From contig JAZDQA010000011.1 in the NCBI GenBank assembly GCA_043797085.1, positions 32,001 through 96,000 of the forward strand: a stretch of DNA of 64,000 nucleotides. Reading direction: 5' to 3'. Numbering within the stretch: the stretch's first letter is position 1; the number at the start of each line of letters is the position of its first letter. Positions 32,750 through 62,309 of the stretch are shown here, one piece after another. Under the pieces are notes generated by a model. It was not told the DNA's origin. It saw nothing but the letters and a program-made list of their open reading frames with translations, and ran no database searches. The position numbers were made by a program, and so were the translations under genes. Origin of the DNA: Pseudomonadota bacterium (GTDB lineage: Bacteria > Campylobacterota > Campylobacteria > Campylobacterales > Sulfurimonadaceae).

Positions 32750-32790
32750 GGGTCAATAGTTCAGTGGTTAGAGCCCTCCGCTCATAACGG
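32750..32790 (+). pseudogene. 5' half of a tRNA(CAT) gene, truncated after the anticodon arm; candidate prophage attL
   Basis: gggtcaatagttcagtggttagagccctccgctcataacgg matches the full tRNA at 32886 (2 mismatches in 41 nt) and then diverges. Confidence 0.8.
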
Positions 32791-32850
32791 CTTAATCTGA
32801 ATTGATAGAACGCCTACAGACAGGGCGGTAAACGGTCTTTATTTTTTTAC

Positions 32851-32873
32851 GGTGACGGCTTAGGTGACGGCTT
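32851..32873 (+). repeat. direct repeat GGTGACGGCTT x2, candidate integrase arm-type sites
   Basis: Copies at 32851-32861 and 32863-32873, about 60 bp inside the att core. Confidence 0.55.
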
Positions 32874-32885
32874 CACTTCTTAAAT

Positions 32886-32961
32886 GGGTCAATAGTTCAA
32901 TGGTTAGAGCCCACCGCTCATAACGGTGTTGTTGCAGGTTCAAGTCCTGCTTGACCCACCA
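32886..32961 (+). tRNA. tRNA with CAT anticodon (probably Ile2/lysidine type; Met not excluded)
   Basis: 76-nt cloverleaf: GGGTCAA/TTGACCC acceptor, CACCG-CTCATAA-CGGTG anticodon arm, GCAGG-TTCAAGT-CCTGC T arm, encoded CCA. Confidence 0.93.
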
Positions 32962-33409: not shown

Positions 33410-33925
33410 TCATAAAATCACTTCGTTTAATTTCTTCTTCGCTCTGCGTTTCGATGCTTCTTCCCGTCTGCGCTTCAGGTTCTCTTCGGGGTGATTGTCT
33501 CTCCACTTCTTTACTGACTGATAAGATAGTGTCGGGTGAAGCTTCCGGTAGTTTTTCATGTATGTCCGCTTGTACTCTCTCTTCTCTTCGATTGACATCG
33601 GTTTTTTCTTCGGATTTGTTTGGAGCGGATCCGTCACCGCTTTGGACTTTTTTGGCTGCACAACCTTTTTACCAATATCGGAAATATGGTTATCCATAAG
33701 ATTTATCATAAGTGGTTTAGAACTTACTTTTTTAGTATCATGATTTGATAGTGTTGGGGCAGCGTTTTTATGGCTGGCATTTTTTCGAGATATTGAAGGA
33801 ATATGTTCTTCCTCCTTGATCCCTATAGCTTTTTTCCATTCTTTTTCAGACATAGGATGTTTCATCCCTTTTGACTTTAGAATGTCGAGGTATTTTTTAT
33901 ATCCTTCATGCATTACCAATACCAT
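33410..33925 (-). CDS. highly basic phage hypothetical protein
   Basis: Lys/Arg-rich ORF in the leftward operon. Confidence 0.65.
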   Translation of the reverse strand: MVLVMHEGYKKYLDILKSKGMKHPMSEKEWKKAIGIKEEEHIPSISRKNASHKNAAPTLSNHDTKKVSSKPLMINLMDNHISDIGKKVVQPKKSKAVTDPLQTNPKKKPMSIEEKREYKRTYMKNYRKLHPTLSYQSVKKWRDNHPEENLKRRREEASKRRAKKKLNEVIL

Positions 33926-34805
33926 TACCTATAATTGATTTTAATCTCTTTCTTTCTCCATCCCGTCTCCATTTTGCACGTAATTTTTCAATACGATCAG
34001 GGTCATCTTTGATTTGTTGATAGCGATTACGTTCTTTTTCAAGGCGACGTTCGACAGCTGCTATATTTTGTTTAAAGCGCTCACGTTTTTTTGGCCCACG
34101 AGCTCTATCTTGAGCCCGTATTTTTTCAGCATTTTGCTTTCGGTACTCCCGAGCTTTTGCACGATGTTCTTCCCATTGCTGAGGAGTCCAATCTTTTTTC
34201 TTATCACGCTGTTTGCGGTTGTATTCAGATACCTTGTCTTTATTGCTTTGAGCATATTCACGATTTCTATCAAGACTTTTCTTTTTATTTTTTGCGTAAT
34301 ATTCTCGCTGATATTCATTTCGCTTTCGTTTTGTTTCATCCGGAGATTGTCGAGGAGATACTCCTTTTTCTAATCTCTTTTTAGCCTGATACTCACGAGC
34401 ACTTTTACGATTACGCTCTATCAACTCTTCATGAGTTAATTTTACTCGCTTTGGTTTCTCTATTTTTAGAGCAGCTTCTTTTTTTACTTTCAGATCTTTG
34501 ACAGGTTTTGGTTTTATCGATCGGAGTACTCTTAGTTTTGTCGTGACGCTTTTCGCTTTGATCGCCGTTTCACTTAGTTTTGGGGCTGGGGCCTTTTTTG
34601 CTTTGGATAGCTCCTCGATGCTGACACGATTTTCATCTTTTATTTTCTCCTGATCTATCAGATACCCGAAAACAGAGCGCTTCGTCCCAGGCTTAATCTT
34701 CATCTCTTTGCATTTTTCTAAGTAACTTTTATAAAGGGTGTCGATGTTATTCATGGAGGCTCCTTTGATTAATCTATTTCTTACTCTTTCCATACTTTGC
34801 ATCAT
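33906..34805 (-). CDS. highly basic helical phage protein (start probably 34754)
   Basis: Repeated R-E-Y-type helical motifs; AAGGAG before MNNIDTL. Confidence 0.7.
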   Translation of the reverse strand: MMQSMERVRNRLIKGASMNNIDTLYKSYLEKCKEMKIKPGTKRSVFGYLIDQEKIKDENRVSIEELSKAKKAPAPKLSETAIKAKSVTTKLRVLRSIKPKPVKDLKVKKEAALKIEKPKRVKLTHEELIERNRKSAREYQAKKRLEKGVSPRQSPDETKRKRNEYQREYYAKNKKKSLDRNREYAQSNKDKVSEYNRKQRDKKKDWTPQQWEEHRAKAREYRKQNAEKIRAQDRARGPKKRERFKQNIAAVERRLEKERNRYQQIKDDPDRIEKLRAKWRRDGERKRLKSIIGNGIGNA

Positions 34806-36885: not shown

Positions 36886-36949
36886 TTGTGAGCTCTCTAC
36901 GTGACTCAGCGAACCACAAAGGGAACCTGCGCCTCGTAGAAAGCTATGG

Positions 36950-36979
36950 GACGGCTCCGACATGAATGTCGGAGCCGTC
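36950..36979. repeat. perfect GC-rich inverted repeat (hairpin/cruciform)
   Basis: GACGGCTCCGACA-tgaa-TGTCGGAGCCGTC between the second DGR target and parA. Confidence 0.8.
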
Positions 36980-37013
36980 ATTAAACTTGAAACGCTTTCA
37001 CACCTTCAATGCC

Positions 37014-37913
37014 TTACATTACCTTCTCTTCTTGATTGTTATCACTCACTTCCGTTCGTTCTGTCATGGGCTCAATGTAGGCTGGACGGAACCCGATGAA
37101 GCTGTACGAGACCGAACGAGCAGCGCCCAGATACAAGGCACCGAGCCCAGCATCCGCACCACCGTACCAATTCCCGCCACGGAACGGCAAACGTTCATCG
37201 CAGTTATCAGCCCAAAAATAGCCTTTTATATCTGTCATGTTGTGTTGTTGAGGTGGTACGATCAACGCTTTGAATAGAAGCTCATCGATTACAACACCGT
37301 CCAATACTTTGGTTTCAACCCAGCGGTTACCGTCATAATCTTCATTTGTAACCGCATTTCCGAAAATTGGTATTCCGTCATTGATGTCCACATGGGTATC
37401 AAATCGTTTCCATTCAGACTCATGCGCTGAAAAATCATTATCATGAGGCATAATGATCTGACCATCGATAAGCTTTAACCCATCGACCCACTCCCATAAC
37501 GATCCGACTCCACCGACGGCGTTTTTACCCTCTTTCAGGCTCCACATTGCCATCGCTGACCACTCCCAGTTCGTCATGAGATGCCATCCTGCACCTTTAT
37601 CCGAACAATGTTTTTTCGCATCATCAAAATCAATCCTTACTACCGGACTGCCGTTCTCATCTTTCTCGTGCCCCATACCGATATGGATGGCATCAATCTC
37701 GACCCCGTTAATGATGAATGCTGGATGAATGCCAGATCCGAATCGTGGGTCCACATCTTCAATGCGAAACTTTGGTATGATTTTCATATCATTATTTTTG
37801 CCATGCTGATCATAGATGGCTGTTATCTCTTTTTGCATAATTTTCTCCCAATATACAAAGCCGTACCGTGTAGCTACCGTGACACGCACTTTTTTCTTTA
37901 TTCTGAGTCCCAC
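37014..37913 (-). CDS. second (remote) DGR target protein, Mtd-like/CLec-fold paralog; alternative start at 37838
   Basis: Shares HPAFI.NGVE, KGAGWH.MTNWEW, WEW.DGLKL and RGG.W...GFRPAY with the 58394 gene; carries VR2. Confidence 0.9.
   Translation of the reverse strand: MGLRIKKKVRVTVATRYGFVYWEKIMQKEITAIYDQHGKNNDMKIIPKFRIEDVDPRFGSGIHPAFIINGVEIDAIHIGMGHEKDENGSPVVRIDFDDAKKHCSDKGAGWHLMTNWEWSAMAMWSLKEGKNAVGGVGSLWEWVDGLKLIDGQIIMPHDNDFSAHESEWKRFDTHVDINDGIPIFGNAVTNEDYDGNRWVETKVLDGVVIDELLFKALIVPPQQHNMTDIKGYFWADNCDERLPFRGGNWYGGADAGLGALYLGAARSVSYSFIGFRPAYIEPMTERTEVSDNNQEEKVM
37082..37191 (-). repeat. DGR variable repeat VR2
   Basis: Ungapped 110-nt match to TR (59848-59957) with 14 mismatches, all at TR adenines. 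Confidence 0.95.
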
Positions 37914-37958
37914 TGGAACTACCTCATATTTTTATAGAACTCCATGTATGGAATGTGG

Positions 37959-38738
37959 TTAAACCTGATACGATTTAACGCCCTCAATACTGTCACAGAT
38001 ACTCTGTGTGAGTTGTCGGCGTGTTTCCTCTTCGAGTTGGTCGATGTTGTAACAGATCAGCTCTGCAACAAACGCACCGTCCTGAGCACTCAAAAATAAC
38101 TCTGTCTCAAAGCGGGTGGTTAGTTCACGATCATTGGTATAGATTGGAAACTCAAAAGTAATAATCCGTGGGATTTCAACGTTTGCTTTTCCAGTTCGGA
38201 CAGTGGCATCAATGCTAAACTTGTTTGATGCATTTCGCTGGATGCTGTCAATTGTTGTGATTCCCTGCAAGCTCTCTGCCATGTCGATGATGTCCATGTC
38301 ATCTGCTTTTTTGTTATCCAGTGCAACGATGAACGGCTCCATACGTTTAAGGAAGCGAATAAAATCTTTTTGACTGATTGATCTTCCATTGTTTGCTCGG
38401 TAATGTTTATAGTCATCAGTTTGGATCAGAGGCATAAGCGCTGCACTGTCACCGTAATCAGGTTGTGAAGCTGTGATATAGTTGAATACGGCTTTTACCC
38501 TGCCATCATCATAGAAAAGCTTTGTAGCGTTTGTTTTGTACTCAGTAACGAATGCAATGAAGTCATCTTTGTTGATGATACTTTGTGATACAACATGCCG
38601 TGCCAATTCAGGCTTAAGGTGGAGTGGCTGCATACTATTATCAATTTTATAGTCTTGGTGTGTAGCTCTAGCCCCATTATCAAGAAGTACACTTGGTATT
38701 CTAAATGCATCGATAAGCGGTCTTAAAAAATCTTTCAT
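37959..38738 (-). CDS. DUF2303 (YfdQ-like) phage protein
   Basis: DFIAFV, AVFNY, SQKDFIRFL and F.FPIY pattern, paired with a ~108-aa upstream gene. Confidence 0.6.
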   Translation of the reverse strand: MKDFLRPLIDAFRIPSVLLDNGARATHQDYKIDNSMQPLHLKPELARHVVSQSIINKDDFIAFVTEYKTNATKLFYDDGRVKAVFNYITASQPDYGDSAALMPLIQTDDYKHYRANNGRSISQKDFIRFLKRMEPFIVALDNKKADDMDIIDMAESLQGITTIDSIQRNASNKFSIDATVRTGKANVEIPRIITFEFPIYTNDRELTTRFETELFLSAQDGAFVAELICYNIDQLEEETRRQLTQSICDSIEGVKSYQV

Positions 38739-40210: not shown

Positions 40211-40267
40211 AGCAATTATAGACAACATTGTCAAGTAATGTCAAGAGGAAGTGTCAAGTTATGTCAA
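40211..40267 (-). promoter_or_regulatory. leftward phage promoter and TGTCAA operator array
   Basis: Minus strand TTGACA-18nt-TATAAT; TGTCAA at 40229, 40239, 40252 and 40262. Confidence 0.7.
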
Positions 40268-40932
40268 CATGGTATGAAAGATTAAAAAAATTACGTGAAC
40301 AAAAGAGCCTTAGTCAGACTCAATTAGGTGAAAAAATAGGCAAAGACTTAACCGCAATAAGTAGGTATGAGAATGGAAGTGGAGCACAAAATCTTACTTA
40401 TAAATTAAAACAAAGTTTACGCTGGGTATTTACGCCTGAAGAAATAGAGTATATTGAGCATGGTGCTATAGTTGAACCTGATAATACGACTAATAATGGA
40501 GTGGTAAAAAATACAATATTAGTTCCCATTATATCTGCAAAGGCAAGTGGTTCACCGGTTGGTGAGATTCACTATGAGGTTGTGACAAAAGGGGAGCTAT
40601 CGATTGCAAGGATGCTATTTAGGACAATGCCAAACGTAGAAAATATACAAGCGATAGAGGTGATCGGGAATAGTATGTCCCCTCGAATTAATCCTGGGGA
40701 TTATGTCATTATCGATAAAGCCGATTCTTTTAATCAAGATGGGGTTTATGTGTTGCAGTTTGATAGTATGTTATTAGTGAAAAGATTGCAGGTAACGACA
40801 AAAGGGATTAAGATCATCAGCGATAACCGATCATACGATGATGACATGTATGATCCCGAAGATGATCAGCGTATGATGCATATCATCGGAAAAGTTATTT
40901 TAGTGATCAATAGAGATATGGCATCGTTCTGA
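40261..40932 (+). CDS. CI-like phage repressor (XRE HTH plus S24 peptidase)
   Basis: RLKKLREQKSLSQTQLG...ISRYENG; V.GNSMSP.I..GD and VKRL autocleavage motifs. Confidence 0.9.
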   Translation: MSTWYERLKKLREQKSLSQTQLGEKIGKDLTAISRYENGSGAQNLTYKLKQSLRWVFTPEEIEYIEHGAIVEPDNTTNNGVVKNTILVPIISAKASGSPVGEIHYEVVTKGELSIARMLFRTMPNVENIQAIEVIGNSMSPRINPGDYVIIDKADSFNQDGVYVLQFDSMLLVKRLQVTTKGIKIISDNRSYDDDMYDPEDDQRMMHIIGKVILVINRDMASF

Positions 40933-55449: not shown

Positions 55450-56211
55450 ATGAATATTATTGATAATGCAGCATGGGATGACATCTATCTAATCGAAACG
55501 AGCGATTACGTTTTAGGGGGAGTAGAGGGAACCAGCAACGAACAGGCAAAAGCTCTCGCTAACCGTACCCGATATCTGCGCGATTTGCTTGAAGCAATTG
55601 AAAATGAAATAGCGCTAATGCCGACATCGAATGTGATGAATCAGGCGCTTTCGCTCAAAGCTGATAAAACCTATACAGATACGGAGCTTGGCAAAAAAGC
55701 CGACAAAACCTATGCAGATAACAAGCTGGGGCTCAAAGCGGATAAAACCTATGTCGATGATGGGTTTGCTATAAAATCGTCGGTAACTGCCAAAGCTGAT
55801 AAAACCTATACAGACACGGAGCTTGGCAAAAAAGCTGACAAATCTTATACAGACACGGAGCTTGGCAAAAAAGCGGATAAAAGCTATGTTGATAATAACT
55901 TTTTGGCAGCATCAAAAATTGTTACTGCAACATCCGGTGAGGTACAAACTTCAGCCCGTGCAGGTGGACAATTGCAGGCCAATTGGAACTATAACTTCGC
56001 AGATATATATCCTCCATCAGGGTTTACGATGTCAAATTTAATTGGCTTTATATGCTCCCCTGCAATTATTTACTTTAATGGAGCGGTAAATGGAGATGAT
56101 ACTTTGTACTGCCGTTGGGAACGACGGCTTGATTATGTGCGTGTCATCTGCCAAAACAGTGAAAACCGAGCAGTCAGTTCTATAAACTATCTTGCGATGT
56201 GGCAAAAATGA
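55450..56211 (+). CDS. tail fibre-like protein with KADK repeats
   Basis: W..IYLIETSD.VLGG..G.SN.QA..LANRT.YL N-terminus typical of tail fibre proteins; six KADK(T/S)Y repeats. Confidence 0.75.
   Translation: MNIIDNAAWDDIYLIETSDYVLGGVEGTSNEQAKALANRTRYLRDLLEAIENEIALMPTSNVMNQALSLKADKTYTDTELGKKADKTYADNKLGLKADKTYVDDGFAIKSSVTAKADKTYTDTELGKKADKSYTDTELGKKADKSYVDNNFLAASKIVTATSGEVQTSARAGGQLQANWNYNFADIYPPSGFTMSNLIGFICSPAIIYFNGAVNGDDTLYCRWERRLDYVRVICQNSENRAVSSINYLAMWQK
55657..55895 (+). repeat. 39-bp (13-aa) coding repeats KADK(T/S)YxDxxLGx
   Basis: Six units, several nearly identical in DNA (aaagctgataaaacctatacagatacggagcttggcaaa). Confidence 0.85.
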
Positions 56212-56928: not shown

Positions 56929-58074
56929 ATGGCAGTTACAGGCATACCAACAACATCAGGCTTAACGATCCTATCCGGATCACTTAAAGAAGGGGTAACG
57001 AAATTTGCCCTCTACGGCACATCGACCGCTACTACTGACGTACCGTTTACGGAAGTGAGCACGATCGCAACGCTTGCATCGTATTTGGTTGGAACGTTTG
57101 ATGTGAGCCGTGGGTATTTTGATCAGACTGGCGTGCTCACATTTGAGTGTCCAATTCCATACAACACCGATTCGACTAAATGGGTAGGAGCATGCGGCCT
57201 GATCCATGTCAATCCATCTACCGGAGAAAGCACACTCGTTGCGATAACTCAGGTACCTAAGTTTCAAAAGGTATCCGGTATCGGAGGAACTATTATCTAT
57301 AAAGTGCCAATCGCAGGAACAGCTGGATCACCGGTATTTGGTACTGAGAGCTATGCGACCAGTGTGCAGGTCGATGAGCGTCTCAATGAACTATATAGCG
57401 GTTTAATGATCGCGATGGATCAGGCGGGGCTTGCTAATAAAGAGATTGAAAAGACACGAACTAAGCGGATACAGTCGGGGGTGATCACACTCAAAAATCG
57501 AGGGGTTATCAAAGGGTGTACTCTCACAAAAAGTATTACGGCTACTCGTAACCTGAGTCTTGGCAATGGCACGGCATACATGAACGGACAAATCCTTGCG
57601 GTAGCTGATCAGCTCAATACCGCTGTGGTACCGGTTAATACCGATGTCGTTTCGAAGACATGTTATGCCTATATGTGGATCGATACGTCTGGCAACGTGC
57701 AGGTGGACTGTACTGCTTTGGGTGGAAGTGTCCCTAGTACCGCTATGGCTATGTATCTCATCACGGTACCCGCCAACTCTACGGAGGCAACCGATCCGAA
57801 TCTCGCACTGTGTACTCTGACCGACGTACGGGTAATCGAGCCGAGCTATCCGAAGATGCTGGTCAATGCTCCATATACCTATGTCGCGCTTCCTTACGAC
57901 ATGATCGAAACCGATTACAGCATCGAGCTAGACGTGATGGAGTTCTCAGGTGGAGGATTTCAAATGGGTTATGTCTATGCTGGTGCTCGTGCTAAAAACG
58001 GTTTTTCTATATATATGAACGGTACCTCCGATACTTTAACAGTACGCTGGACCGCTAAAAAAACAAACTTATAA
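56929..58074 (+). CDS. tail fibre/collar protein
   Basis: 381-aa beta-rich protein after gpI and upstream of the DGR target. Confidence 0.6.
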   Translation: MAVTGIPTTSGLTILSGSLKEGVTKFALYGTSTATTDVPFTEVSTIATLASYLVGTFDVSRGYFDQTGVLTFECPIPYNTDSTKWVGACGLIHVNPSTGESTLVAITQVPKFQKVSGIGGTIIYKVPIAGTAGSPVFGTESYATSVQVDERLNELYSGLMIAMDQAGLANKEIEKTRTKRIQSGVITLKNRGVIKGCTLTKSITATRNLSLGNGTAYMNGQILAVADQLNTAVVPVNTDVVSKTCYAYMWIDTSGNVQVDCTALGGSVPSTAMAMYLITVPANSTEATDPNLALCTLTDVRVIEPSYPKMLVNAPYTYVALPYDMIETDYSIELDVMEFSGGGFQMGYVYAGARAKNGFSIYMNGTSDTLTVRWTAKKTNL

Positions 58075-58084
58075 AGGGGAATGA

Positions 58085-58393
58085 ATGATTGTTAAAGAAA
58101 TGCAGCCGGACGGAAACTTCGAAGATTACTTATTAGAAGGATCGGTTCTTAAAATCGGTAAGCAGATTATGGATATCGACGAGCTTCAAAAAGAGGAACA
58201 AGTCATCATCGACATCATCGAGGATGGACGCTTTGTTGCCAATATCATAATACCCCCTGCTGTGTATGAAGAAATACAGGAGCCTACGGTGGAGGGTGAG
58301 CCATCTATTCCACCAGTAAAGGTTCTGATAGACATGGACGCGGTCAAACTTATCCTATGGGATAAACCAATCTTAACAGTAGAAGGAGAATAA
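58085..58393 (+). CDS. phage hypothetical protein (possible fibre adaptor)
   Basis: 102 aa, abuts the DGR target gene start. Confidence 0.6.
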   Translation: MIVKEMQPDGNFEDYLLEGSVLKIGKQIMDIDELQKEEQVIIDIIEDGRFVANIIIPPAVYEEIQEPTVEGEPSIPPVKVLIDMDAVKLILWDKPILTVEGE

Positions 58394-59455
58394 ATGCCGA
58401 CGATTTTTACAAAAGACACACTCCGTGCGAGTGTAGAGGCCAGCACTGGCGGAAAGGTCACCGTGCTCTATGATGACAAAGGATACCCGAGCTATATGCA
58501 CGTCGTTCCGAAATTCAATGTTCAGGATATCGATGTTTCTTTGGGTACCGGAGTACACCCGGCGTTTATCGTCAATGGTGTGGAGAAGAGCGAAATCTTT
58601 ATCGGTCAGCATCTCGCGCACGTTCGTGATGATCGTGCGGTAAGTTTGCCAGGTCTTGATCCTAAAACCGGAGTCACATTTGATCAGGCACGTACGTATT
58701 GTAAAAACAAGGGTGCAGGCTGGCACATGATGACGAACTGGGAGTGGGCGGCCGTCTCACTATGGGCACTTAAAAATGGGTTTCAGCCTCGAGGTAACAC
58801 GAACTATGGACGAAGCCATGAGGCGACGTATGAAACGGCAGCACGAATGGACGGCGGAGCACCTGGTGTCACTACCGGAACTCCTCGAACACTAACCGGA
58901 GGCGGACCAGCATCATGGCGTCATGATAATACCTATGCGGGTATCGCTGATCTCGTCGGGAACGTGTGGGAGTGGCAAGATGGGCTCAAACTCGTGGATG
59001 GAAAAATCATAATGCCCGCCGATAACCACTACTCTCTCGATGAAGCGTCATGGGCGGATACCGGTGTGCGTTTTGATGGTACGGTTGCCTCTGCTGGGTT
59101 GGACGGATCGTACGGAGATGTCGGTGATCCGATCCTAAGCGACGCGATCATCAACTACCTCGGGCCAACCGGGGACAATGGCTCTTACGATTACTCGACG
59201 ATTGCGAACTGGAGAAGCCTCACGGCAAAAGCCGGATACACAGTCCCTAATAACATGAAGCAGGCATTGATCTATCCATACGATGCGGTAAACCCAAAAG
59301 GTTATCTCTATATGCGTAACTACGGGGAGCGTTTGCCGGTCCGTGGCGGGTATTGGAGCGATGGTGCGGGTGCTGGGCTCGGTGCCTTGAATCTGACCAA
59401 TGCTCGTTCGTACTCGGGCAGCCACATCGGGTTCCGTCCAGCCTACATTATGTAG
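58394..59455 (+). CDS. DGR target protein 1, Mtd-like receptor-binding protein (CLec/FGE-sulfatase-like fold)
   Basis: MTNWEW, DLVGNVWEW, C-terminal RGG.W...R......IGFRPA containing VR1; lies in the tail fibre module. Confidence 0.92.
   Translation: MPTIFTKDTLRASVEASTGGKVTVLYDDKGYPSYMHVVPKFNVQDIDVSLGTGVHPAFIVNGVEKSEIFIGQHLAHVRDDRAVSLPGLDPKTGVTFDQARTYCKNKGAGWHMMTNWEWAAVSLWALKNGFQPRGNTNYGRSHEATYETAARMDGGAPGVTTGTPRTLTGGGPASWRHDNTYAGIADLVGNVWEWQDGLKLVDGKIIMPADNHYSLDEASWADTGVRFDGTVASAGLDGSYGDVGDPILSDAIINYLGPTGDNGSYDYSTIANWRSLTAKAGYTVPNNMKQALIYPYDAVNPKGYLYMRNYGERLPVRGGYWSDGAGAGLGALNLTNARSYSGSHIGFRPAYIM
59332..59441 (+). repeat. DGR variable repeat VR1
   Basis: Ungapped 110-nt match to TR with 10 mismatches, all at TR adenines. 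Confidence 0.96.
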
Positions 59456-59491
59456 CAGTGATGGATTGAGCGATAGCGAAAGGATCTAAGA

Positions 59492-59827
59492 ATGAACGGA
59501 AGATATCTCCTGCTGGAGAAAAAGATCAGAGACCTGAAAATGTATCTTGGGGTGATGCTTCGCAATTATCCACGGTACGAAAAATTCGCTATCGCGCATG
59601 AGATACAGTCGAACATCACCATGATGCAAAGAATGGTGATCGCAACGGGCAAAAAGTATTTTAAAAAGACGGATCTTCGCGATCTTGATATCGAGCATGA
59701 AATGCTCCGACAAAATATACTCATCTCGTATGAGATGAAGTACATCGATATGAGACGGTTCGAATATGTATCCGGTCTGATCGACGAAGTCGGAAGACTC
59801 ATCGGCGACTGGATATCAAAAATTTAG
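59492..59827 (+). CDS. avd: DGR accessory variability determinant (Avd-like four-helix protein)
   Basis: 111 aa, basic; YPRYEKFAI, L..LD.E..ML, EVGRLIG.W motifs; between VR and TR. Confidence 0.88.
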   Translation: MNGRYLLLEKKIRDLKMYLGVMLRNYPRYEKFAIAHEIQSNITMMQRMVIATGKKYFKKTDLRDLDIEHEMLRQNILISYEMKYIDMRRFEYVSGLIDEVGRLIGDWISKI

Positions 59828-59847
59828 GTTGCACTTCTCTTGTGTGT

Positions 59848-59957
59848 TTTGCCGATCCGTGGCGGGAATTGGAACGATGGTGCGAATGCTGGGCTCGGTG
59901 CCTTGAATCTGAACAATGCTCGTTCGAACTCGAACAGCAACATCGGGTTCCGTCCAG
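59848..59957 (+). ncRNA. DGR template repeat (TR), part of the DGR RNA in the avd-RT spacer
   Basis: Intergenic, 23 adenines, nine AAY codons in the VR reading frame; matches both VRs except at A. Confidence 0.95.
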
Positions 59958-60117
59958 ACTGTACGGCTGTTATTGAAGCTCATGGCGTATTCGCCTCGAG
60001 ATGAATGTTGTATAGGGTAGAAGTGCGACCTGTATCCTTAACCGGACGAAATAAATGCTTGAATAGCATAAGCCTTGAGCTGCGTGCTAACTGTAGGCCA
60101 TTACCAAAGAGGGAAAC

Positions 60118-61212
60118 GTGGGAAAAGTATTCGATCAAATCATAATGATGGAGAACGCCTTGGATGCTTTCAGACTGATTCGAAAAGGGCATTCAGAAGA
60201 TTATTCGATGCTCAAGTTCGAAAGCAACCTGATGGCCAATATCCAAACGATTGTCGGGAGCATAAAAGACGGGACCTACTCCGTAAAGGGGTATCGGATA
60301 CTCGTCGTGCGAGAACCGAAAGAGCGAAATATTTACGCACCTTATATTGAGGATCGATTAGTACAGCAGATGATCTACAGCGCCATCGAACCTTTTCTTG
60401 ACCGAAAGATGGACCATTATTCCGGTGCATGCAGGATTGGAAAAGGGGTTGAGTTTTCACGTAAAAGTACTCAGCGCATGATGCGTTATCGCGATTCAAT
60501 TTGGTATGTCAAGCTCGACATTGATAAGTTTTTTGCGTCTATCGATCACGATGTTCTCAAAAGCATACTTGCAAAGCATATCCGGGACAAAGCCGTGCTA
60601 GAACTGCTTGAGTGTTTTATCGGGAACGGTTTCGGGGACAAGGGGATACCGATCGGCAATCTGCTCAGTCAGCTCTTCGCCAACTTGTATCTCAATGAAC
60701 TCGATCAGTTTGTCCGGCACGATACTAAAGCCGTCCATTATGTTCGGTATATGGATGATTTTATCTGTTTTGCCAAAGATAAAGAATCTGCCCGTGAGTT
60801 AAAGATAGAAGCGATCCGCTTCGTTAATGAACAGCTGAAGCTGAACATTGATAACCGAAAGGTGAAACTTCAAAAGGTTAAACACGGGATCACGTTCCTG
60901 GGGTGCAAGATAAAGGCAAAAAAGATGTTTTTGTCCAAGACGAAAATCAAGAAGATCCGCCATCGGATCAAGCGGTACATTCAAAGCGGATGTTCCACCC
61001 CGATGCAGCATTCGTTCGCGAATATTGTTCCGGAGGATGATACGTTTGTTTTGGCAAAAATATTCCATGTCTACAATGAATTCGCAGGGCGCGGCGAAAA
61101 GCTCCTCATGCTTAAGGCATGCTCTAAAAAGTTCAATGTGTTCATGTCAGGTCAATACCTATTTATAGGTGGCGCAAAAAAGTTATCAAAAATTAAGGAG
61201 GTAACACTATGA
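60118..61212 (+). CDS. DGR reverse transcriptase
   Basis: EPKER.I, DRLVQQ, KLDIDKFFASIDH, GIPIGNLLSQLFAN (SQ motif of DGR RTs), YVRYMDDF, FLG. Confidence 0.95.
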   Translation: MGKVFDQIIMMENALDAFRLIRKGHSEDYSMLKFESNLMANIQTIVGSIKDGTYSVKGYRILVVREPKERNIYAPYIEDRLVQQMIYSAIEPFLDRKMDHYSGACRIGKGVEFSRKSTQRMMRYRDSIWYVKLDIDKFFASIDHDVLKSILAKHIRDKAVLELLECFIGNGFGDKGIPIGNLLSQLFANLYLNELDQFVRHDTKAVHYVRYMDDFICFAKDKESARELKIEAIRFVNEQLKLNIDNRKVKLQKVKHGITFLGCKIKAKKMFLSKTKIKKIRHRIKRYIQSGCSTPMQHSFANIVPEDDTFVLAKIFHVYNEFAGRGEKLLMLKACSKKFNVFMSGQYLFIGGAKKLSKIKEVTL

Positions 61213-62309
61213 GTTTAAATTTTGGAATTAACGGAAGCATCAGCGTCAATGCTGCGCGTCCGATAACAGTCGATTCGACAACCCCGATCGCTATCGTAGC
61301 GACAACGGATATTGTCAATCTTGGAATAAAGTTTTTCGGTAATGCTGAATTGGCACGTTTAGAGTATTCCGCTTCGACAGCCGGTACTCTTATCTCAGCA
61401 CTCGATGCGATCATTGCCCAGGGTGTTCGTTGTCCGATCATTCTTAATATGCTAGATGATTCAGCAACAGATATACAGGTGATAGCAGCGATTAATGCTC
61501 TATCGACCTCTGAAGCCATTACAGGATATCGACCTGATCTTATTATTGCTCCTGGGTTCTCTAGTTCTGCTGCGGTAGGTGCCGCGATGGATGCTATTGC
61601 ATCACGTCTATGGTGTACTGCTATCGTCGATGTGACTGCAACGACTGAGAGTTTAGCACTATCGTTTGCCGGTAACTTCGGAAGCCGTCACGTTCTCCTC
61701 GTTGGTCCCGAATCGATCAGCATTGGTGGGATCGGTATGGCACCATCGGCAGTCTATGCCGGTGTGATCGCGGCGATGGATGCTTCCAATCCATTTGGAT
61801 GGGCAGAGTCTGCATCAAACCGTATTGCCAAAGGGGTTAGCTCAACAACCCGCATCGTCGATTATGCGGACGGTCAGGATTCGGAAGCACGTCGTCTTCG
61901 TAATGCCGGTGTCGCATCAATCGTTCGTGATGTGGGCTGGCGTACTTTTGGTTTTGAGACCACCGACATCGATCCGATCTGGTCACCGCTGAATCGTGTA
62001 CGCTCGTTTTACAAAATGCTTCGCGGCATGATCTTAGCTTCAAAATGGGCGCGTGACCGTGGAGCTGATGAGCTTCTCATGGTTAAACAATCAGTCGAAG
62101 AGTTTATGCGCGGTTTGAAAGGTGCGGGTGTCGTTCTCGGATTCGAGGCGTATTTCGATACTGAAAAGAACACAAAAACAACCGTCACCAATGGACAGTT
62201 TTATTTGACAGTAGAGGTTCAGGATATGCCAACGATCCGTGAACTTAACATCGAGCTTGTCTATGTAGACAATTACAGTGACGTTCTTCTCAACGTCATT
62301 AACGGTTAA
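61209..62309 (+). CDS. tail sheath protein
   Basis: P.LIIAPGFS, PS...AG, S.SNR, GWRTFG..T, VR patterns; precedes the tube gene. Confidence 0.88.
   Translation: MSLNFGINGSISVNAARPITVDSTTPIAIVATTDIVNLGIKFFGNAELARLEYSASTAGTLISALDAIIAQGVRCPIILNMLDDSATDIQVIAAINALSTSEAITGYRPDLIIAPGFSSSAAVGAAMDAIASRLWCTAIVDVTATTESLALSFAGNFGSRHVLLVGPESISIGGIGMAPSAVYAGVIAAMDASNPFGWAESASNRIAKGVSSTTRIVDYADGQDSEARRLRNAGVASIVRDVGWRTFGFETTDIDPIWSPLNRVRSFYKMLRGMILASKWARDRGADELLMVKQSVEEFMRGLKGAGVVLGFEAYFDTEKNTKTTVTNGQFYLTVEVQDMPTIRELNIELVYVDNYSDVLLNVING

What the first reader, a model, noticed from the sequence alone, without database searches (positions are those of the whole stretch)
58394..61212. Complete, apparently intact DGR cassette inside the tail operon
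Seen: target gene with C-terminal VR1, avd, TR and an RT with YMDD and GNLLSQ motifs; the RT stop overlaps the sheath start (ATGA at 61209). TR has 23 adenines, 18 of them in nine AAY codons, and VR1 differs at 10 positions, all TR adenines. Known: this is the architecture of the Bordetella BPP-1 tropism-switching DGR. Inference: host-range diversification in a contractile-tailed prophage of a probable Campylobacterota host.
Basis: partly seen in the sequence, partly recalled or inferred. Interest (0 to 1): 0.85.

Follow-up and report, generated by a model that had tools for sequence, protein, structure and literature searches.

The report
Sulfuricurvum prophage DGR with two targets
A prophage of the groundwater bacterium Sulfuricurvum carries an intact targeted-mutation cassette (a diversity-generating retroelement) whose one template matches the variable tips of two related binding proteins, one that likely sits on the tail fibre and picks the host, and a second, 22 kb away among the early genes, that likely works off the virion; this two-target layout is already published for gut phages.

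Summary
TR 59849-59957 has 23 adenines (18 in nine AAY codons), VR1 differs at 10 positions, all TR adenines, and avd, RT and the ATGA overlap are as stated. The RT groups with DGRs (100/99), not group II introns or retrons. The host is Sulfuricurvum, and the prophage is a ~38 kb myovirus type. Additions: (1) the target is a full-length homologue of monomeric TaqVP (5VF4) and VHML ORF35, not of trimeric Mtd. (2) The same TR matches a second VR at 37082-37190 (-), with 14 of 14 mismatches at adenines. It lies in a shortened paralogue in the early operon, before parA-parB. (3) Both VRs are hypervariable at adenine codons across sister phages (14 of 15 and 15 of 16 alleles distinct). (4) Aliarcobacter prophages share the layout. 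(5) The target hairpin is non-canonical: a GRNA loop on a stem with predicted G·A mismatches. Receptor binding and the role of target 2 are untested. Distal second targets are published (Benler 2021, Dahlman 2025, Lagaffe), and this scan noted the layout in at least 21 other genomes. Verdict: new member of a known kind.

The parts
56929..58074 (+). Putative tail fibre stalk (381 aa): tail-collar-like N-terminus plus a C-terminal domain that is conserved upstream of this target family
   Evidence: No Pfam/NCBIfam/PHROG hit. Atlas leads to PF12571 at 0.86, lead only. C-domain found upstream of the target in 65 of 83 cassette loci, and in 0 of 816 downstream control ORFs.
58085..58393 (+). 102-aa protein, predicted adaptor between fibre and variable protein (role inferred from gene order only)
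   Evidence: phrog_8734 E 4.9e-7. Upstream of the target in 59 of 83 cassette loci, 0 of 816 control ORFs.
58394..59455 (+). Target 1 (T1), 353-aa FGE-type C-type-lectin-fold variable protein, TaqVP/VHML ORF35 family
   Evidence: PDB 5VF4 E 6e-84, residues 6-353. FGE-sulfatase E 3.4e-8. phrog_2889 E 3e-135. VHML ORF35 47%, ACA1 antireceptor 44%.
59333..59441 (+). VR1
   Evidence: 10 of 10 mismatches with TR at adenines
59442..59449 (+). IMH (8 nt shared with VR2, different from the IMH* after TR)
   Evidence: alignment
59467..59480 (+). Non-canonical target hairpin motif: GATA (GRNA) loop, 2 Watson-Crick pairs, predicted tandem G·A mismatches, 1 closing pair
59492..59827 (+). avd
   Evidence: Pfam PF22296 E 1.7e-19; phrog_3206
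59827..59838 (+). 5' arm of the predicted RNA duplex that encloses TR (cPRT-Stop-like)
   Evidence: Pairs with 60019-60030, with compensatory changes among 4 loci
59849..59957 (+). TR (109 nt, 23 A, nine AAY codons, 13 variable codons)
   Evidence: One-nucleotide difference from the TR of sister phage L006.
59958..60117 (+). IMH* and spacer: predicted duplex 59959-59967/60007-60015 (possibly template:primer), 3' duplex arm 60019-60030, stem-loop 60035-60046 followed by adenosines
   Evidence: architecture as described for BPP-1 in 10.1101/2023.10.23.563531 (passages)
60118..61212 (+). DGR reverse transcriptase (YMDD, PIGNLLSQ), intact ORF
   Evidence: Best PDB hit 8UB7 E 8e-43 vs 5e-24 for the next. 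DGR clade 100/99. dN/dS 0.06 vs sister phage.
61209..62309 (+). Tail sheath gene, start overlapping the RT stop (context)
   Evidence: Pfam Phage_sheath_1C E 1.5e-6, over cut-off
37014..37838 (-). Target 2 (T2), 274-aa paralogue. It lacks T1's N-terminal ~19 residues and ~52 residues of insert 1', has a 19-aa C-terminal extension, and lies between DUF2303 and parA-parB in the early leftward operon
   Evidence: 36% identity to T1. AF2 pLDDT 92.8. Foldseek 5VF4 E 6e-25, TMq 0.82. Neighbours. Start at ATG 37838 because the upstream GTG extension is broken in L005.
37082..37190 (-). VR2
   Evidence: 14 of 14 mismatches with TR at adenines
37045..37058 (-). Second copy of the non-canonical GRNA-loop motif (GGAA loop), inside T2's C-terminal extension
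40215..40244 (-). 12/12 sigma-70 consensus site heading the leftward operon that contains T2, divergent from the cI-like repressor at 40261-40932
   Evidence: consensus match only; total site count no higher than in shuffles

Best explanation
This is an intact diversity-generating retroelement in a Sulfuricurvum myovirus-type prophage whose single template matches two adenine-mutated variable regions, and it likely rewrites both: VR1 in a lectin-fold protein predicted to tip the tail fibre and change which receptor the phage binds, and VR2, 22 kb away, in a shortened paralogue that is likely made from the early operon and likely works as a free binding protein off the virion. Shown: gene anatomy, A-only mismatches in both VRs, shared IMH, RT in the DGR clade, CLec fold by homology (T1) and by predicted model (T2), and hypervariation at adenine codons across sister phages. 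Inferred from BPP-1 knowledge: RT-Avd copies the cis-primed TR RNA with errors at A, and the cDNA replaces each VR 5' of the IMH. Inferred here: T1 docks on the fibre through the 381-aa and 102-aa proteins (0.7). T2 is non-virion and binds a host or phage factor in the cell, such as a defence or takeover target (0.5). Component odds: DGR 0.98; both VRs true targets 0.97; lineage recently active 0.93.
For: A-only mismatches in VR1 (10/10) and VR2 (14/14). RT tree: 25 DGR rows including BPP-1-type, VHML, ACA1 and Lagaffe form one side of a 100/99 branch, against 7 group II, 7 retron-like and 3 other RTs. Alleles: T1 14 of 15 VRs distinct, 139/195 variable-codon positions changed vs 14/345 invariant. 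T2 15 of 16 distinct, 149/208 vs 15/368 (frameshifted P0144 left out). Sister phage VR1 11 of 12 and VR2 12 of 14 mismatches at A. T2 body dN/dS 0.12, and 0.13 in Aliarcobacter. T1 follows the fibre-C and adaptor genes in 65 and 59 of 83 loci, and structural neighbours of this fold are C-terminal domains of tail fibres. ACA1 and ACA2, on two Pseudoalteromonas species, differ mainly in the VR of a T1 homologue (PMC10612066, passages). T2 sits on the opposite strand among DUF2303/parA/parB/xis. Remote T2s of Lagaffe, G667 and G668 also start after the N-terminal helix.
Against: No binding, virion or expression data for this phage. TaqVP is monomeric, and in the parts of PMC6328139 I read (parts 1-2 of 4 plus passages) no ligand or virion role is given. 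In ACA1 preparations the antireceptor peptides were very abundant and of the prophage allele, with cellular contamination, so that study does not prove virion location. Against T2 being non-virion: Aliarcobacter T2 keeps T1's N-terminus (93% DNA identity over 373 nt). Most Sulfuricurvum T2 database entries are called with a 25-aa N-terminal extension that aligns loosely with T1's helix. T1 and T2 show similar residue spectra at AAY codons. The canonical Watson-Crick hairpin is absent. Allelic diversity is across strains and does not show present activity in this genome.
Confidence: 0.6

Rival explanations
1. T2 is an alternative fibre-tip subunit. Both paralogues dock on the same adaptor, so virions carry two independently diversified binding sites and the system is purely host-range diversification.
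For: Aliarcobacter T2 has an N-terminal region almost identical to its T1. Same fold and similar residue spectrum. Suggested in print for Lagaffe_CP (PMC11792537, passages).
Against: Early, opposite-strand location behind a cI-divergent promoter. Loss of the N-terminal helix in 4 of 5 lineages examined. Loss of most of insert 1' and a more acidic pI, 4.8 vs 6.0.
Confidence: 0.22
2. T2 is mainly a reservoir: a second mutated VR that can be recombined into T1, or a passenger copy with little function as a protein.
For: Contigs in two runs join 36945 to ~37960, skipping the T2 gene, so it is accessory (likeness 80). T1-to-T2 homogenisation occurred in Aliarcobacter. One allele is frameshifted in its VR (P0144).
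Against: T2 body dN/dS 0.12-0.13. Its VRs stay in frame in 16 of 17 alleles.
Confidence: 0.1
3. T1 is not the infection receptor-binding protein but an accessory adhesin or decoration, or a protein acting in the lysogen. The primary receptor binder would be the 253-aa fibre-like protein at 55450-56211.
For: 55450-56211 matches PHROG tail-fibre families. TaqVP is monomeric. ACA1 peptides were unusually abundant and of the prophage allele.
Against: In ACA1 the T1 homologue replaces the C-terminal antireceptor part of the P2 gpH fibre. Fibre-adaptor-T1 synteny is conserved across phyla.
Confidence: 0.2
4. The element is a fossil in this genome: VR differences are old and retrohoming no longer works, for example because the hairpin has decayed.
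For: No stable hairpin by ViennaRNA at five VRs. No raw reads were available to see within-sample variants.
Against: The same mismatched motif sits 23-26 nt after GFRP in all 8 Campylobacterota-type VR flanks examined. RT dN/dS is 0.06. Sister phages at 93-99% T1 body identity almost all carry different VRs.
Confidence: 0.06

Closest known systems
Bordetella phage BPP-1 DGR (mtd-avd-TR-brt)
   Same: Gene order, A-specific TR/VR relation, IMH/IMH* asymmetry, RT clade (best PDB hit 8UB7, which I recall as BPP-1 bRT), predicted duplex enclosing TR.
   Different: Target is a single CLec domain without Mtd's trimerisation domains. Contractile tail. Second remote target. Hairpin stem is not Watson-Crick. 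RT lies on a long Campylobacterota-associated branch.
Thermus aquaticus prophage TaqVP (PDB 5VF4), Vibrio phage VHML ORF35 and Pseudoalteromonas ACA1 gp42 DGRs
   Same: Full-length homology of T1 (E 6e-84; 47%; 44%), with the VR colinear to TaqVP's surface-exposed VR. VHML has the same position between baseplate/fibre genes and the sheath.
   Different: T2 lacks most of insert 1', which in TaqVP braces the VR main chain. VHML and ACA1 gave one matching place per record.
Faecalibacterium phage Lagaffe / Lagaffe_CP two-target DGR (PMC11792537)
   Same: Two homologous targets of this same family, one in the tail module and one among early genes (integrase, exonuclease, Gam, ERF, SSB), both with A-only mismatches (13/13 and 11/11). 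T2 starts after the N-terminal helix.
   Different: Lagaffe T2 keeps insert 1', is on the same strand and ~9 kb away, and the host is a Bacillota gut bacterium.
Quimbyvirus distal DGR target (Benler 2021, PMC8008677) and the four double-VR gut prophages of Dahlman 2025 (PMC12629997)
   Same: Second VR distal to the structural module; in Quimbyvirus on the opposite strand and proposed to be non-structural.
   Different: Those lie near methyltransferases and other counter-defence genes in gut phages. Here the neighbours are DUF2303 and parA-parB.

Membership tests
DGR | TR/VR pair differing at TR adenines only | tested here: met
   VR1 10/10, VR2 14/14
DGR | RT in the DGR clade with intact catalytic motif | tested here: met
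   100/99 branch, 42 rows, LG+G4; PMSF quick tree 99; YMDD
DGR | Avd accessory gene | tested here: met
   PF22296 over cut-off; NF033474 75.5 vs 80 bits, just under
DGR | IMH after VR differing from IMH* after TR | tested here: met
   8-nt IMH shared by VR1 and VR2, different in TR
DGR | Target protein with CLec (or Ig) fold and VR at the binding surface | tested here: met
   T1 colinear with 5VF4 through the VR; T2 model matches 5VF4, TMq 0.82. Surface exposure is taken from the TaqVP paper, not measured on my model.
DGR | RNA duplexes around TR (cPRT Stop, template:primer) | tested here: inconclusive
   Predicted, with compensatory pairs, but only 4 sequences of which two are near-identical, and no shuffle control
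DGR | Ongoing mutagenic retrohoming | tested here: inconclusive
   Strong between-strain signal; only contigs, no raw reads
BPP-1-type phage DGR target site (Guo 2011, PMC3240598) | 7-10 bp GC-rich Watson-Crick stem with GRNA loop after VR | tested here: not met
   GRNA loop present, but only 2+1 canonical pairs around two G·A appositions; no stable fold
Mtd-type tropism determinant | Trimeric beta-prism/beta-sandwich plus CLec protein | tested here: not met
   No Mtd hit by sequence at E<=1; T1 aligns over its whole length with single-domain TaqVP
Tropism-switching DGR | VR change switches receptor or host | not testable with these tools
   Needs adsorption and host-range assays
Group II intron / retron RT | RT in those clades, YADD, maturase or msr-msd | tested here: not met
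   TIGR04416 151 vs 300 bits, NF038233 64 vs 235; outside both clades

The most novel reading that the evidence does not exclude
Campylobacterota prophages use a distinct DGR sub-lineage whose target signal is a one-strand hairpin held by sheared G·A pairs, which cannot form a cruciform. It drives a second, early, insert-less lectin-fold protein acting as an evolving intracellular binder, a phage 'antibody' against host defence or partition/replication factors.
Probability: 0.2. Interest if true: 0.75.

Novelty: new member of a known kind. Interest (0 to 1): 0.4.

Why it matters
The cassette is a textbook DGR, so that part is ordinary. Its value is as a test case for two open questions. First, what remote early targets do: here T1 and T2 are paralogues that differ by defined deletions, with 15-16 natural alleles each. 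Second, whether the target hairpin must be a double-strand cruciform: this lineage conserves the GRNA loop, but on a stem that only the sense strand could form. It also puts DGRs in prophages of groundwater sulfur oxidisers, where they look rare (0 of 300 family and 0 of 400 class genomes searched, overlapping samples).

Tried and rejected
Single-sequence AF2 of T1 failed (pLDDT 31) and was not used. Complex prediction of fibre-C + adaptor + T1 was not available, so docking is untested. Read-level variant calling was impossible because all 24 runs were contigs. In run X1 three short contigs cover VR2 with 16-24 differences, but two haplotypes also occur outside the VR, so strains and retrohoming cannot be separated. 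In RNA run X15 a 2.1-kb contig matches 37084-38100 without differences, but DNA carry-over is not excluded and depth cannot rank genes, so this is not used as evidence of expression. Single origin of Sulfuricurvum and Aliarcobacter T2 is unresolved: two groups in both partial trees, monophyly not rejected (AU p 0.36). A regex count of the N-terminal helix was too strict to be informative. Entropy values included a mis-framed row, the T2 distinct count used a faulty window, and the L005 VR2 comparison was one base off. replace them. Fibre-C profile against PDB gave only an unconvincing hit to 4gt6. The Atlas gave only unnamed clusters for the 102-aa protein. A paper search for DGR with Campylobacterota/Sulfuricurvum/Arcobacter showed no DGR paper among the 20 listed of 984. 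This is weak, and RT-bearing Helicobacter prophage records exist, so I do not claim a first for the phylum. The scan's notes near this place returned nothing.
Full report
Observation. Every stated feature is present. VR1 (59333-59441) and TR (59849-59957) align without gaps over 109 nt. TR has 23 adenines, 18 in nine AAY codons, and all 10 mismatches fall on adenines (P 2.7e-8). Thirteen codons can vary, giving about 1e13 protein variants in theory. The avd product matches Pfam bAvd. The RT has YMDD and PIGNLLSQ, and its TGA overlaps the sheath ATG at 61209.

Context. The window is C11:32001-96000 of a 2.4-Mb, 96% complete genome. The host TrpC falls in a 90% cluster whose named members are mostly Sulfuricurvum. 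The prophage runs from a split tRNA(CAT) at about window 32790 to attR at C11:103111, about 38 kb. It has an integrase-like ORF beside attR (named from motifs, no family scan), xis, a cI-like repressor, a DnaB-like helicase, terminase, portal, capsid, baseplate, sheath and tube. Near-identical phage DNA occurs in groundwater, sediment and wastewater runs of 10 studies, at word shares up to 0.43 (five runs laid). The target family was not found in 300 other family genomes or 400 class genomes (overlapping samples).

RT. The best solved relative is 8UB7 (E 8e-43; recalled as BPP-1 bRT), against 5e-24 for the next, group II-type entries. In a 42-row tree the window RT and its two closest relatives form a long branch (100/100). 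With 22 other DGR RTs, including a BPP-1-species phage, VHML, ACA1 and Lagaffe, they form one side of a 100/99 branch apart from group II and retron-like RTs. The outgroup labels come from plasmid annotation (6 of 7 group II rows) and below-cut-off retron model matches.

Target 1. It is a full-length homologue of TaqVP (5VF4, E 6e-84), colinear through the VR. The TaqVP paper (PMC6328139, parts 1-2 of 4 and passages read) describes a monomeric single FGE-type CLec domain with solvent-exposed variable residues, unlike trimeric Mtd. Homologues include VHML ORF35 and the ACA1 'antireceptor'. In 83 distinct cassette loci with enough flank, 65 have the C-domain of the 381-aa gene and 59 the 102-aa gene just upstream; 0 of 816 downstream ORFs match. 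I infer a fibre stalk-adaptor-CLec tip module. The complex predictor was unavailable, so docking is untested. PMC10612066 (passages) reports that ACA1 and ACA2, on different host species, differ mostly in this VR, but its peptide data are ambiguous about virion location.

Target 2. An adenine-wildcard scan of the whole genome found one more copy of TR, at 37082-37190 on the minus strand, with 14 of 14 mismatches at adenines and the same 8-nt IMH as VR1. Its ORF is 36% identical to T1, folds confidently (pLDDT 92.8) and matches TaqVP (TMq 0.82). It lacks about 52 residues of insert 1' and, from the ATG at 37838, the N-terminal helix. An upstream GTG frame is open here and in most alleles but broken in L005, so the start is probable, not certain. 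It lies between DUF2303 and parA-parB, in the operon headed by a perfect sigma-70 consensus divergent from cI. Contigs that skip the gene exist in two runs. Outside the VR it is under purifying selection (dN/dS 0.12).

Activity. Among database alleles of 93-100% body identity, T1 has 14 distinct VRs in 15, with 139 of 195 variable-codon positions changed against 14 of 345 invariant ones. T2 (74-100% body identity) has 15 distinct in 16, with 149 of 208 against 15 of 368, after leaving out one frameshifted fragment. Six T1/T2 pairs matched by identical longest-contig length (an assumption of co-location) share 3.3 of 13 variable residues against 4.0 for cross pairs, which fits independent diversification. 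This is between-strain evidence; no raw reads were available.

Conservation of the layout. Two Aliarcobacter MAGs have the cassette between the same fibre/adaptor genes and the sheath (complete in L010; L009 is cut upstream). They also have an insert-less T2 directly before parA-parB, with adenine-specific VR2 (15 of 16 and 18 of 20 mismatches). In one both lie on a single contig about 19 kb apart in opposite orientation. There T2 keeps T1's N-terminus at 93% DNA identity, which argues against T2 always lacking a docking end. Of five RT-less or multi-hit genomes checked, three (Lagaffe, G667, G668) have a remote paralogue matching their own TR; two gave one match and no RT with this query.

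Cis elements. By eye, many of 112 relative loci have a perfect GRNA-loop hairpin after the VR, as described by Guo 2011 (PMC3240598, passages). The window's two VRs and six Campylobacterota-type relatives instead share Y-GA-RC-GRNA-GY-GA-R. The motif occurred in 8 of 112 flanks (6 of this group, 2 others) against 1 and 0 in two controls and 0.1% in shuffles. ViennaRNA finds no stable hairpin. Stabilisation by sheared G·A pairs is my inference from general knowledge. A 12-bp duplex enclosing TR, followed by a stem-loop and adenosines, is predicted with compensatory changes in 4 sequences, resembling the cPRT Stop element (10.1101/2023.10.23.563531, passages).

Mechanism. RT-Avd likely copies TR RNA with errors at adenines and the cDNA homes to both VRs. 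T1 likely diversifies receptor binding at the fibre tip (0.7). T2 is likely an early, non-virion binder (0.5); alternative tip (0.22) and reservoir (0.1) are the rivals.

Prior art. Distal second targets are in print: Benler 2021 (PMC8008677, passages), Dahlman 2025 (PMC12629997, passages), Lagaffe_CP with two homologous targets (PMC11792537, passages), Toutatis (10.1101/2024.10.15.618418, passages), and tentaclins (PMC10743442, passages). Roux 2021 notes that its survey could not see remote targets (PMC8144416, passages). No supplements were read, and DGR catalogues there may already list relatives of this phage. This scan holds 21 similar notes from other genomes. Verdict: real, intact, new member of a known kind; interest 0.4.

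Noticed in passing
window 32750-32961 and G000 C11:103111-103163: The prophage integrates in the anticodon loop of a host tRNA(CAT) (core CTCATAACGG), leaving the 5' half at attL and the 3' half at attR. It carries a complete replacement copy of that tRNA ~95 nt inside attL.
   Followed up: partly
G000 C11:103200-129029: A second island follows attR and ends in another copy of the tRNA 3' half. It holds an integrase-like ORF and large helicase/restriction-type ORFs, judged from motifs only.
   Followed up: no
window 55450-56211: 253-aa fibre-like protein with 13-residue KADK repeats placed between baseplate J and tail protein I; possibly a second fibre.
   Followed up: partly
window 36945-37960: Contigs of related elements in two runs join across this stretch, so T2 is a ~1-kb accessory insertion beside a perfect inverted repeat near 36950-36985.
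   Followed up: partly
L008:9947-10320 vs L010:9941-10320: Aliarcobacter T1 and T2 share 373 nt at 93% identity at their 5' ends while their middles diverge, suggesting recombination between paralogues.
   Followed up: partly
L053, L055, L060, L069, L071, L073: Members of this CLec family in Clostridia sit among housekeeping genes (several after carB-like genes) with no RT, avd or phage gene matched in the locus; possibly domesticated or remote cellular targets.
   Followed up: no
L064, L143, L124; Klebsiella and Vibrio phages: T1 homologues occur in tail modules with no avd or RT matched between target and sheath (L064, L124, L143), apparently after DGR loss; the Klebsiella and Vibrio records were not checked for an RT.
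   Followed up: no
P0020, P0021, P0032: Treponema-labelled and related homologues have an independent deletion of insert 1' with different boundaries.
   Followed up: no
window 33410-34805 (-): Two very basic, lysine/arginine-rich ORFs (299 and 171 aa) without Pfam match at the end of the early operon.
   Followed up: no
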